Below, piece by piece: positions 48,001 through 51,000 of a DNA stretch of 64,000 nt (the first letter of the stretch is position 1; each line of letters starts with the position of its first letter). The stretch lies in NCBI RefSeq assembly GCF_003790525.1, contig NZ_CP033635.1; one strand, written 5' to 3'. The position numbers were made by a program. The DNA comes from Escherichia coli (GTDB lineage Bacteria > Pseudomonadota > Gammaproteobacteria > Enterobacterales > Enterobacteriaceae).

Positions 48001-51000
48001 GTTATAAGGTTTGATATAGATACACGAATTAAGAGTATTCAGCAAGAATTTTATGAATATAAATTCTTGTCTAATATTAGTGTTGGAGAAATAATGCCTC
48101 TTACTACTTTGCTATTTTTGTCTATGCTGCCCCTTCATAGCGATCGTCCGGATCGTCAAAAAGCTATGCTGTTTAATGCACTGCGGATATATTCTACATA
48201 TGTTTACGATGTTTAATATAAACAATTTATATTATTTAAAATATTAAATTGGAAATTGTGTTAATTTAATTTGTTAGTGTTTTATGATTTATTTAAATAT
48301 TGGATTAGTGGCCTTTTCATCAAATTAACACATTAATTTTTTTTGTGTTCTGAATGTAATGGATTACTAACTTTAATAAAGCACTGCTATTATATATTTG
48401 TAATATACTGCAGTGCTTTTGTAAATTACCCGTTTTAGTTCCAAGCATTTTTGATATACTGAAAAATAATGGTGTTGCCGATATTCCTCCTGCGTTATAA
48501 TGTTCAGTGATTCATGCGGGTGTTCAACTTATATTCTAACAACCAAGTTTCCGTGATTTCCCGTACGTCATTCAGCATTATGAACAGATAAAAATCGAGT
48601 ATTTCTGTACGGTATGTCAGGTTAAAATGTTCAATGAAAGCATTCAGCGTCGGTTTACTTGTTTGGATAAACTCCAGTTTTACTACGTGTTTCTCTGCTC
48701 ATTCAGCCAGTGCCAGAAAGAGAAATTCCGGGTAGTTATCTACGCGAAGTATGATCGGATAGCTACAGTTTGCTGCGATACTGTCGGGTACACTTACCAC
48801 TCGTGGAACTGGCAGACGCCGATCGATTTCAATCGATAACGTCTCACGGTTTTAAAGCTATCAACGATATTGAACGTGCGAAAACGGCGAACACAGACCA
48901 GAGCATCATGCATAAAATCGACAGATCATCGTAGGTTCAGCGTTTCCGGTATGTTAGTGGCGAGGGATTACGCACCGGCAACCGCTGTTTGCCCTCACGG
49001 CGAAAATTCAGCTTCAGCAGACAGTAAATTCGGTGGATCCATTTGTGATTCCACTAATACCCCTGCAGCCGTAAAATCTGGAAAAGTTTCGGAAAATCGT
49101 ATCGAGGATAACGCTCTGCCACCGCCGGCAAGGCGACAATAATGAGTTCGTTACGCGTGGTATCTGGAGGATAAAGATAAACCGTTCTGCTCAGGTTCAG
49201 ACTCCGGCAGGCCTGACTGATACTGAGTCCGATCGTCGTTATCAGGTGAGTGACCTGCTCACGCTTAAAGACTGGTTTTAAAGCTTTTTTCGATAACGTC
49301 TTTCAGTGCCCGGCTCTCCAGCCTCACTCCGGCAAACATCTGTTTGAGACGGTGGTTCCCGTCTTTAAGCTCCTTGATCTTTTTAATATCAGAAGCCTCC
49401 ATGCTGCCGTACTTGGACATTCAGTTGTAGTGGGTGGCTTCAGAAGTACCAGCCTCCCGGCAGATATCTTTTAACAGTTCGTCCGGATTCAACCGTTTTA
49501 ATGGCGGCCATGAGCTGACACTCAGTAAAACGGGCTTTACGCATAACGATTACCTTCATCGGTAGATTGGGTATGCCGGAGGATCTCTAAATATGAATGA
49601 CACAATTATGCAGGATACTTAAATAATAAGTTCACATTATGTGATACACAGTGTTTCGCCGCTCTTGATAGTTTTATTGTTCAGGGAATATAGAATGGCA
49701 TAATATTAACTTAGCAGTAATTAATTAGATGTATTTAAGATATAATATATTGAAGGTAATTACAGTAACCATGACTTGTAATACTTATGTTAATTATAAT
49801 CCATTAAATTAACTTGAGCCCACTTACTATTATATGCACATAGATTACTATTGGAATAATAAACCCCATTAACCTGCGTCTTAACCAATAAATACCCACG
49901 AAACTTCTTAAACAGTTTCATATCCGGTTTAAAATCGGCCTGCCAGAACTGGTGCAAATGCCCTTGATACGTCAAGCCTTTGATGTCGTACAGGGCATTG
50001 CCCATCACTTTGAGTGGTTTGTTATGAATCAGCGCAGAGATCCCCGCCGTACTGTTAATTGTCACCACCGCTTTTGCGTGGCGTAATAATTCTGGCATTG
50101 GGAGATCGTGCACGTATATGACTCGCTCACCTAAGCCATATTCCTTACTTAACCGCTTAATTAATGGTCGATAGAGTCTGTGACCACGATCCATCGGATG
50201 ATGTTTGATCACCAAATAACTTTCTTTCGGCGCTTTACGTGAAAATGAGTACATGACTTCATTAATATAGTCACGCACATCGTTATAATTACTGTGGTTA
50301 CGAATCTGGCTATCGTTATATACCTGCAAAACGGCAAGATAATAACGCTGGTCCAACTCGTTCATTAACCTCGGTAATACCTTACGCTGTGTTACCTTGT
50401 AAAGTTGCTTGCGCCAGTATGCACGAACCCAGCAACGTGCTTCATACCAGGGGGAAAACGATTTATGGTGGCGGTAGCGAGGGAACTCATGGCGGTAATG
50501 CCAGCCCATCAGGTAATACCACATCGCATGACCTATACGTTTCATCGTTGAAGGTTTTAAGTTCTCAACGTGCGGCGTAGGCATATCTGGTAACTTACGA
50601 TAAAAATCCGGATCGCGCGGTAGCGATGAATATGCGTTTACTCCGCCTTCTTCAACGGTAATAAATTGCGGGCGTAAATATCCTTCCTCAAATGCCAGAA
50701 AGCGGATCCCTTTCGACTTTGCCCAGCGTTTTGCTTCTTTGTGCAATGGGCGGCAGTCACCAAAGCAGAGGATGGTATCAAAGTCATATTGCCGGTGGAG
50801 ATCCCGTAACCATCCGGGAAGCTCTTTCGGCGTTTGGTAGTAAGCCAGGTATTGTCGATGGCGGCAGTAAAAACGATCCCCACCGTTGAATACAACATTC
50901 ACAGCGTTACGTCCTAATGACTCTAACCATTCGGCGACGTCATTGAAAAAAGGTCCCATCGGCCCCTGCAATAGCAGATATTTTTTACCGGATAATAAAA

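What the first reader, a model, noticed from the sequence alone, without database searches (positions are those of the whole stretch)
48430..49600. Decayed IS3-family element at the region 2 / kpsS boundary
A minus-strand IS3-type orfA with an in-frame TGA and fragments of orfB with TGG-to-TGA changes and deletions sit exactly where the variable serotype region meets conserved region 1. This looks like the scar of the event that brought in or swapped the serotype cassette.
Basis: seen in the sequence. Interest (0 to 1): 0.35.

Follow-up and report, generated by a model that had tools for sequence, protein, structure and literature searches.

The report
Dead IS3-family element beside kpsS
A full-length but long-dead insertion sequence lies between the serotype-specific capsule genes and kpsS in this E. 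coli capsule locus (probably K52); it is an ordinary, already annotated molecular fossil, and nothing shows it brought the cassette in.

Summary
Window 48420-49623 (minus strand) is an IS3-family insertion sequence. It is 84-86% identical in DNA to intact 1,207-bp elements on enterobacterial plasmids and to the pks-island copy that papers call IS1400.

It is not a set of deletion fragments. It is full length (1,204 bp) and keeps both ends. It is dead: four in-frame stops (three TGG->TGA), seven small indel events, a damaged frameshift site, and one terminal TG mutated to TT. Codon-position counts, dN/dS (0.37 against 0.06-0.10 in intact copies) and a GC->AT bias point to about 10% neutral decay.

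All 39 complete E. coli genomes with this region 2 carry the same dead copy. No empty site exists among 5,426 genomes.

The real conserved/variable breakpoint is at 49855/49856, inside the 3' end of kpsS and 232 bp from the IS. Every K type sampled shares that breakpoint, with or without an IS. Both IS flanks are AT-rich DNA specific to this locus type.

Related cassettes elsewhere lack the IS. Only the missing 4-bp target duplication hints at a rearrangement. RefSeq already annotates the pseudogene, and IS remnants in K loci are published. Interest is low.

The parts
48420..49623 (-). Complete but inactivated IS3-family insertion sequence. It is 1,204 bp; intact relatives are 1,207 bp.
   Evidence: Alignments to five related copies lose similarity at exactly these ends in all of them. 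DNA identity to those copies is 84-86%.
49599..49623 (-). Left (orfA-side) terminal inverted repeat. The terminal dinucleotide is mutated from TG to TT (TTTAAGTATCC... against TGTAAGTATCC... in relatives).
48420..48444 (+). Right (orfB-side) terminal inverted repeat. It reads TGTAAATTACCCG... on the + strand; the terminal TG/CA is intact and there is a 1-bp deletion near 48428.
49278..49544 (-). orfA remnant (HTH_Tnp_1-type DNA-binding part). The ATG is at 49544-49542. It has a 1-bp insertion at 49472 and TGG->TGA at 49421-49423.
49284..49290 (-). Remnant of the programmed -1 frameshift site. The A7G run of intact copies is shortened to A6G by loss of one A.
48435..49290 (-). orfB remnant (HTH_21 + rve/rve_3 integrase core). 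Stops lie at 49054-49056 (TAG), 48926-48928 (TGA) and 48699-48701 (TGA). Indels lie near 48954 (-1), 48852-48853 (+2), 48527 (-1) and 48464 (-2).
   Evidence: The PGAP pseudogene ends at 48435.
49137..49279 (+). Decayed copy of the Rfam sRNA family isrN (RF01396), antisense to the transposase just 3' of the frameshift site. Several model base pairs are broken, two of them in the 3' hairpin.
   Evidence: 123.7 bits against a gathering score of 44. Related IS copies score 151-159 bits at the same internal position.
48217..48419 (.). AT-rich spacer (20% GC), specific to this locus type, between the stop of the last region-2 gene and the IS. It contains an inverted repeat, 48372-48387 / 48410-48425. 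The last 4 bp are CTTT.
   Evidence: It matches only the 39 genomes of this locus type.
49624..49789 (.). AT-rich spacer (28% GC), specific to this locus type, between the IS and the kpsS stop codon. The first 4 bp are TAAT, so there is no target-site duplication with CTTT.
49790..49855 (-). The 3' tail of kpsS that is specific to this locus type (stop codon plus the last 21 codons; 26% GC). The true conserved/variable breakpoint is at 49855/49856.
   Evidence: Homology with about 1,780 other kps genomes starts at query position 556/557, which is window 49855/49856. KpsS proteins of 8 loci diverge after ...VKTQVNxxYY.

Best explanation
This is a complete copy of an IS3-family insertion sequence. 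From the 4-bp target duplications of its relatives it looks like the IS407 group. It is closest to the 1,207-bp element that pks-island papers call IS1400.

Inferred history: it transposed long ago into the AT-rich non-coding DNA between two convergently transcribed units, the region-2 operon and kpsS, in the ancestor of this K-locus type (probably K52). That position disrupts no gene, so the insertion was tolerated. The element then lost all function and has been decaying neutrally since.

Today it does nothing. It is inherited passively as part of the serotype-specific block. That block moves between E. coli lineages by homologous recombination whose breakpoint lies in the 3' end of kpsS, not at the IS.

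Shown here: its identity, its completeness, its inactivation, its fixation in this locus type, and the position of the breakpoint. Inferred: that it is a passenger rather than the agent of cassette acquisition, and the approximate age.
For: **Identity**
- DNA identity is 84-86% over the full length to intact IS copies.
- Protein-level matches: E = 4e-181 and NCBIfam transpos_IS3.

**Completeness**
- Both ends align to the ends of five relatives.

**Inactivation and neutral decay**
- There are 4 stops and 7 indel events.
- Differences by codon position are 38/45/72, against about 7/6/41 between intact copies.
- dN/dS is 0.35-0.39, against 0.06-0.10 between intact copies. Solving for two phases gives about 0.10 neutral substitutions per site.
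- GC->AT changes number 90 and AT->GC changes 35. GC content has fallen from 49.9% to 45.0%.
- No intact protein closer than 76% exists among 5.8 billion sequences.

**Fixation**
- 39 of 39 genomes with this region 2 carry the element, and there is no empty site in 5,426 genomes.
- The two haplotypes differ only by 7 SNPs in the IS, none at a lesion, so inactivation predates their split.

**Passenger status**
- The breakpoint lies at 49855/56 in all K types.
- Both flanks are AT-rich.
- Between haplotypes, the IS (0.58%) diverges like region 2 (0.74%), not like kpsS (2.2%) or kpsC-kpsD (3.0%).
- Homologous cassettes lack any IS: L016 (48 bp from a kpsS-like gene), L015, and L017/L019.
- Another K type has an IS1 pseudogene at the same junction, and published K4-like loci carry IS elements between kpsS and kfoC (PMC13171598). 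This fits a permissive landing site.
Against: - There is no 4-bp target-site duplication (CTTT against TAAT), whereas all four intact relatives have perfect 4-bp duplications. With about 10% decay, losing 3 of 4 positions is unlikely (roughly p = 0.03, my estimate). One flank may therefore have been replaced after insertion.
- This locus is otherwise rearranged: kpsM and kpsT are separated by two genes. Unusual events did happen in its history.
- No empty-site allele or donor locus was found, so the order of events cannot be reconstructed.
- The K52 assignment is inferred, not tested. It rests on ST69 O15:H18 carriers and on the published KL52 reference being UMN026, which is not in the searchable collection.
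Confidence: 0.7

Rival explanations
1. The IS is the footprint of the event that assembled or imported this region 2. Possible routes are recombination between two IS copies, an IS-mediated adjacent deletion, or a composite-transposon-like transfer. In this reading the IS marks a true junction between DNA of two origins.
For: - There is no target-site duplication, although the intact relatives make perfect 4-bp ones.
- The IS lies at the kpsS-proximal edge of region 2.
- The locus has an unusual kpsM ... kpsT split.
- Published work proposes that IS elements import genes into region 2 of other K loci (PMC13171598).
- The inferred decay of about 10% is far more than the 0.6-0.7% difference between the two haplotypes, so the IS is old enough to date from locus assembly.
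Against: - Both flanks have the same AT-rich, locus-type-specific character.
- The composition and homology step is 232 bp away, inside kpsS, and is the same in K types without an IS.
- There is no second IS copy or remnant at the other end of region 2 (annotation).
- Related cassettes in three other contexts have no IS.
- Neither flank matches any other K type.
Confidence: 0.22
2. The remnant has been retained because part of it now has a function. Candidates are the isrN-like antisense RNA, a spacer or terminator that insulates the convergent region-1 and region-2 transcripts, or a patch of homology for recombination with plasmid-borne IS copies.
For: - It is present in 39 of 39 genomes.
- The isrN match is still far above the Rfam gathering score, 123.7 bits against 44.
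- IsrN is an expressed RNA in Salmonella (PMC2330248).
- A K5 variant that apparently acquired blaCTX-M by recombination at its IS remnant has been reported (PMC13171598).
Against: - Fixation is expected anyway for a neutral insert linked to a selected cassette.
- The isrN copy scores about 30 bits lower than related copies and has broken pairs in its 3' hairpin.
- Substitutions are spread over the whole element with a neutral pattern.
- No terminator-like site was found, and promoter-like sites are not above chance.
- Other K types manage with 48-160 bp at this junction.
Confidence: 0.05

Closest known systems
IS3-family element of 1,207 bp found on enterobacterial plasmids (e.g. E. coli ETEC4072 plasmid CP122669.1, S. 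Weltevreden plasmid NZ_LN890521.1) and next to clbA in the pks island, where papers label it IS1400
   Same: - Same length class, 1,204 against 1,207 bp.
- Same ends (TGTAAGTATCC... / ...TTTACA).
- Same orfA/orfB layout with an A7G frameshift site.
- Same internal isrN antisense region.
- 84-86% DNA identity over the full length.
   Different: - The window copy has 4 stops, 7 small indel events, a shortened slippery run and a TG->TT terminus. It has no target-site duplication and shows about 10% neutral decay.
- It forms its own lineage, about 15% from a clade whose members are 92-98% identical to each other.
- ISfinder was not available, so the exact IS name is unverified.
IS remnants inside E. 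coli group 2/3 K loci: the fixed IS3 remnant of K5, the IS elements between kpsS and kfoC in K4-like loci, and IS1 elements (Gladstone et al. 2026, PMC13171598)
   Same: - A non-functional IS inside the K locus, fixed in one K type, adjacent to kpsS or region 2.
- IS3 is one of the two commonest IS families in K loci.
- I also saw an IS1 pseudogene at the same junction in another K type.
   Different: - A different element and a different K type.
- Here the IS is purely intergenic and carries no capsule gene as cargo.
- I could not compare it directly with the K5 remnant, because no K5 locus was retrieved.
IsrN sRNA of Salmonella Typhimurium (Rfam RF01396; Padalon-Brauch et al. 2008, PMC2330248)
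   Same: The full 143-nt model is matched at 123.7 bits. The orientation is the same, antisense to the IS3-family transposase at the 3' end of orfA.
   Different: This is a decayed copy with several non-canonical pairs. Expression was not tested here. The other five copies of this IS family that I scanned score 151-159 bits.

Membership tests
IS3 family insertion sequences | Transposase homologous to IS3-family OrfAB (an HTH N-terminal part plus an rve/DDE integrase core) | tested here: met
   The conceptual translation in the reference frame scores 161 bits on NCBIfam NF033516 transpos_IS3 (cut-off 160). It hits IS3-family transposases at E = 4e-181 and 76% identity. The intact homologue has HTH_Tnp_1, HTH_21, rve and rve_3 domains.
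IS3 family insertion sequences | Two overlapping reading frames (orfA, orfB) joined by programmed -1 frameshifting at an A-rich slippery site | tested here: met
   The layout is preserved and recognisable. Intact relatives have A7G at IS positions 333-340. The window copy has lost one A (49284-49290) and carries further frameshifts, so the mechanism is no longer operable.
IS3 family insertion sequences | Imperfect terminal inverted repeats ending 5'-TG ... CA-3' | tested here: met
   The right end is intact (TGTAAAT on the + strand at 48420). The left end is mutated from TG to TT (TTTAAG at 49623-49618 on the minus strand). That TG...CA ends define the family is from established knowledge.
IS3 family insertion sequences | Short target-site duplication flanking the element (4 bp in this clade) | tested here: not met
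   The window flanks are CTTT and TAAT. Four intact relatives have perfect 4-bp duplications: GTTT, TTTA, ATCC and GCTA. This does not affect family membership of the element itself. It bears on the history of the insertion.
IS3 family insertion sequences | Potentially active (intact transposase) | tested here: not met
   There are four in-frame stops and six frameshifting indel events in the coding region. PGAP notes 'frameshifted; internal stop'.
IS407 subgroup of the IS3 family | 4-bp target duplication and about 1.2 kb length (criteria recalled from ISfinder/TnPedia, not checked against ISfinder) | tested here: inconclusive
   Relatives are 1,207 bp with 4-bp duplications, which is consistent. 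No ISfinder comparison or subgroup phylogeny was possible with these tools.
Rfam isrN (RF01396) | Score at or above the family gathering threshold over the full model | tested here: met
   123.7 bits against 44, model positions 1-143 of 143, at 49137-49279 (+).
Rfam isrN (RF01396) | Expressed, Hfq-associated small RNA | not testable with these tools
   No expression data are available for this locus. Several model pairs are broken in this copy.
E. coli group 2 capsule (kps) locus, type KL52/K52 | kpsFEDUCS, then region 2, then kpsMT, with region-2 content matching the KL52 reference (CU928163, UMN026) | tested here: inconclusive
   kpsFEDUCS and kpsM/kpsT are present. The same locus occurs in ST69 O15:H18, and the published tables type ST69 O15:H18 isolates as K52/KL52. 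The reference genome itself is not in the searchable collection, so no direct comparison was made.

The most novel reading that the evidence does not exclude
The missing target duplication and the unusual split of kpsM from kpsT may be two traces of one IS-mediated rearrangement that built this locus type from parts of two different kps-like loci. The dead IS would then be the only surviving junction marker, making it a rare datable record of how a new E. coli capsule type was assembled.
Probability: 0.12. Interest if true: 0.4.

Novelty: already known. Interest (0 to 1): 0.12.

Why it matters
It matters little on its own. The pseudogene is already annotated in RefSeq, and IS remnants in E. 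coli K loci are described in the literature.

The analysis has three modest uses:
1. It corrects the picture. The element is a complete, point-mutated copy, not a set of deletion fragments.
2. It shows that the recombination boundary of the serotype cassette lies inside kpsS and not at the IS. The IS is therefore a lineage marker for this cassette type rather than its edge.
3. It gives a rough relative age. The IS carries about 10% neutral decay, against about 0.6-0.7% divergence between the two extant haplotypes of this locus.

K52 is reported as one of the most invasive capsule types (PMC13171598). A fixed, unique 1.2-kb fossil is therefore a convenient specific marker for this locus.

Tried and rejected
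1. **Donor or related cassette by protein, GTDB species representatives.** I searched with the 525-aa last region-2 protein and found no confirmed relative.
2. **This decayed copy in other species.** I searched the same collection for a remnant-specific 29-mer that includes the 2-bp insertion and found no match. This copy is not in any other species' representative genome.
3. **Empty-site search.** A construct joining the two flanks found no genome with a contiguous match. The genomes of this locus type match as two separate places, and all others match only the last 45 bp, which is conserved kpsS.
4. **Ancestral site from related cassettes.** I aligned the flanks to the intergenic DNA of L015, L016 and L017/L019. 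Scores were no better than shuffled controls, and tblastn found no trace of a transposase there.
5. **A closer intact relative.** I looked for one that would explain the 15% divergence as functional evolution. The best protein among 5.8 billion is still only 76% identical.
6. **Direct comparison with the KL52 reference (UMN026).** NC_011751.1 is not in the collection.
7. **Terminator and promoter scan of 48100-49900.** No terminator-like sites were found, and promoter-like sites are at or below the shuffle expectation.
8. **The K5 'IS3 remnant'.** I could not retrieve a K5 locus with the hits sampled. The ST131 genome I opened carried a locus with the same region-2 genes as Seattle 1946.
9. 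**'Fragments with deletions' rejected.** The alignment shows only 1-2-bp indels over a full-length element.

Full report
**Context.** The window is an E. coli chromosome segment carrying a group 2 capsule (kps) locus next to the gsp/sslE/glc genes.
- It is 100% identical over window 1-38782, and identical except for one SNP up to about 58975, to strain CUVET17-1418.
- kpsS is at 49790-51022 (-) and kpsC at 51057-53084 (-).
- The last region-2 gene, encoding 525 aa, is at 46639-48216 (+).
- The finding therefore lies in the 1,573-bp gap between two convergent transcription units.

- PGAP annotates window 48435-49544 (-) as 'IS3 family transposase; frameshifted; internal stop'.
- blastn finds full-length matches at 84-86% identity to IS3-family elements on plasmids of E. 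coli, Citrobacter, Salmonella, Klebsiella and Pantoea. It also matches the copy beside clbA in the pks island, which papers call IS1400.
- A multiple alignment with five such copies shows similarity starting and stopping at the same two positions in all of them. This defines the element as window 48420-49623, 1,204 bp against 1,207 bp.
- The intact homologue encodes an OrfAB of 370 aa with HTH_Tnp_1, HTH_21, rve and rve_3 domains.
- The window copy, translated in the reference frame, is 76% identical to it. It hits IS3-family transposases at E = 4e-181 and still reaches the NCBIfam transpos_IS3 cut-off.

**Anatomy and lesions.**
- The element is complete, not a set of deletion fragments.
- Four in-frame stops:

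| Window position | Change | Frame |
|---|---|---|
| 49421-49423 | TGG->TGA | orfA |
| 49054-49056 | CCG->TAG | orfB |
| 48926-48928 | TGG->TGA | orfB |
| 48699-48701 | TGG->TGA | orfB |

- Seven indel events:

| Window position | Change | Location |
|---|---|---|
| 49472 | +1 | orfA |
| 49284-49290 | -1 | A7G slippery run, now A6G |
| near 48954 | -1 | orfB |
| 48852-48853 | +2 | orfB |
| near 48527 | -1 | orfB |
| near 48464 | -2 | orfB |
| near 48428 | -1 | right inverted repeat |

- The left terminus has mutated from TG to TT. The right terminus is intact.

**How decayed is it?**
- Between intact copies, differences fall mostly at third codon positions (for example 7/6/41) and dN/dS is 0.06-0.10.
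- For the window copy against the same references, the counts are 38/45/72 and dN/dS is 0.35-0.39.
- I treated the divergence as a constrained phase plus a neutral phase. Both the codon-position method and the dN/dS method give about 0.10 neutral substitutions per site, on top of roughly 0.2 synonymous substitutions per site of earlier functional divergence (my calculation).
- Changes relative to the clade consensus are biased, 90 GC->AT against 35 AT->GC. GC content has dropped from 49.9% to 45.0%, as expected for unconstrained DNA.
- No intact protein closer than 76% exists among 5.8 billion sequences. The divergence is therefore not explained by a closer living lineage.
- Converting 10% into years depends on the clock used. 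It means millions of years or more, and I do not put a number on it.

**Distribution.**
- Exactly 39 of 5,426 complete E. coli genomes carry this region 2. The same 39 carry the IS with its flanks at 99.3% identity or more.
- A synthetic empty-site query found no genome with the flanks contiguous.
- A remnant-specific 29-mer is absent from 100,044 species-representative genomes.
- Two haplotypes, the canine Thai strain and ST69 O15:H18, differ in the IS by 7 SNPs and no indels. None of the SNPs falls at a lesion, so the element was already dead in their common ancestor.
- The locus is probably K52. ST69 O15:H18 strains carry it, the published tables type such isolates as K52/KL52, and the KL52 reference is UMN026. 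UMN026 is not in the searchable collection, so this remains an inference.

**Where is the real boundary?**
- Homology of kpsS with about 1,780 other kps-positive genomes ends at window 49855/49856, 66 bp inside the 3' end of the kpsS ORF.
- An alignment of KpsS from eight loci shows that every K type has its own C-terminal tail of about 20 residues after ...VKTQVNxxYY.
- GC content steps there as well:

| Segment | GC |
|---|---|
| Conserved kpsS | 45% |
| kpsS tail (49790-49855) | 26% |
| IS-to-kpsS spacer (49624-49789) | 28% |
| Spacer on the other side of the IS (48217-48419) | 20% |
| Region-2 genes | 30% |

- The IS therefore sits 232 bp inside AT-rich DNA specific to this locus type, not on the junction.
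- Divergence between the two haplotypes tells the same story: region 2 0.74%, IS 0.58%, conserved kpsS 2.2%, kpsC-kpsD 3.0%. The IS moves with region 2 as one block, and the exchange points lie in conserved kps DNA.

**The same junction elsewhere.**
- K1 (NGF1), two loci with the same region-2 genes (Seattle 1946 and ST131 MB1159), and one further K type have 120-161 bp and no IS between region 2 and kpsS.
- One atypical locus has region 3 directly after kpsS.
- One K type has an IS1 pseudogene at this same junction.
- Cassettes homologous to this region 2 also lack an IS:
  - a Logan contig with the homologous last gene 48 bp from a convergent kpsS-like gene (L016);
  - another contig followed by what looks like the start of a kpsC-like gene (L015; identified by eye);
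  - an E. coli K type with a 67%-identical three-gene module and a 625-bp gap (L017/L019).
- None of these contains any trace of this IS or of the window's flanks.
- Gladstone et al. 2026 report that 28% of unique K-locus sequences contain an IS. They find IS1 and IS3 the commonest families, a fixed IS in K5, and IS elements between kpsS and kfoC in K4-like loci.
- IS remnants near kpsS are thus recurrent and already described.

**Interpretation.**
- Best supported: an old insertion into a permissive site between convergent operons, followed by inactivation and neutral decay. The copy is inherited as cargo of this serotype-specific cassette.
There is no 4-bp target duplication (CTTT against TAAT), while all four intact relatives have perfect ones (GTTT, TTTA, ATCC, GCTA).
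- At about 10% decay, loss of three of four matches is improbable, roughly 0.03 by my estimate. One flank may therefore have been exchanged after insertion.
- The odd separation of kpsM from kpsT in this locus shows that rearrangements did occur in its history.
- Against this, there is no second IS copy, no compositional difference between the flanks, and no donor. I rate this rival at about 0.2.
- A current function is unlikely, about 0.05.

**An extra feature inside the element.**
- Rfam's isrN family (RF01396) matches 49137-49279 (+), antisense to the transposase just 3' of the frameshift site, at 123.7 bits.
- All five related IS copies match at the same internal position with 151-159 bits.
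- In Salmonella, IsrN was described as a 143-nt RNA overlapping the 3' end of the transposase gene STM2765 (PMC2330248).
- IsrN therefore appears to be an antisense RNA borne by this IS lineage. The window's copy is decayed, with broken pairs that include two in the 3' hairpin.

**Verdict.** The feature is real, correctly recognised and ordinary. It is already annotated in RefSeq and belongs to a published class of IS remnants in K loci. The causal reading is unproven.

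Noticed in passing
window 36323-42797 (kpsM 36323-37099; kpsT 42117-42797): kpsM and kpsT are not adjacent in this locus. 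A galactosyltransferase-related gene (37199-38191) and a 3.7-kb CDP-glycerol glycerophosphotransferase-family (TagF-like) gene (38211-41945) lie between them. In canonical loci kpsM and kpsT overlap by 4 bp (L013, L018, L019). The window's KpsT is only 70% identical to the KpsT of L013. A related cassette, L015, has no kpsT in the middle.
   Followed up: partly
window 49137-49279 (+); L003 1821-1963, L004 1821-1963, L006/L007/L008 621-763: The Rfam sRNA family isrN (RF01396) matches every copy of this IS3-family clade that I scanned, at the same internal position and antisense to the transposase. The 'island-encoded' Salmonella sRNA IsrN therefore looks like an IS-borne antisense RNA.
   Followed up: partly
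window ~58545-58727 (-): A truncated IS110-family transposase pseudogene lies downstream of kpsF. The same fragment is annotated at the same place in the ST69 locus of this type and in ST131 strain MB1159, which carries a different region 2. It is therefore a conserved fossil of the kps flank, unlike the IS3 copy, which is specific to this locus type.
   Followed up: partly
window 58976-64000: The window stops matching CUVET17-1418 here. That genome has tRNA-Phe and yqgA at this point. The window instead continues into the end of an SPI-7-type integrative element (ParA, DnaB-PI helicase, ParB) that matches chicken E. coli genomes at 99.8%. ARAGORN finds no tRNA in 56000-64000.
   Followed up: partly
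window ~3203-7290 (-): A four-gene cluster lies next to yghO. From the RefSeq annotation of the identical genome it encodes a fatty acyl-AMP ligase, an NAD-dependent epimerase/dehydratase, an acyl carrier protein and a serine palmitoyltransferase (spt). A sphingolipid-type enzyme is unexpected in E. coli.
   Followed up: no
window 41838 and 36200-36310: The two haplotypes of this locus type differ by a 12-bp in-frame indel in the TagF-like gene (at 41838). They also differ by a cluster of changes upstream of kpsM, where a 12-bp length difference is placed at the very start of the compared stretch and may be an alignment-edge effect. Elsewhere region 2 differs by only about 0.7%.
   Followed up: no
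L004 1477-2683 (pks island copy of the IS): The pks-island copy of the related IS is itself a pseudogene, with one TGG->TGA stop at IS position 571. Its dN/dS is still low (0.10), so it was inactivated recently. It also lacks a target duplication and abuts another partial IS3-family gene.
   Followed up: partly
window 46639-48216 (+): The 525-aa last region-2 protein gave no Pfam hit in my scan. It belongs to a very large family of capsule-locus proteins, with 1,731 hits at 45-65% identity in Pseudomonas, Acinetobacter, Pasteurella, Actinobacillus, Bibersteinia ('EcbG'), Aeromonas and Moraxella. Some members are annotated as phosphotransferase (PF01636).
   Followed up: partly
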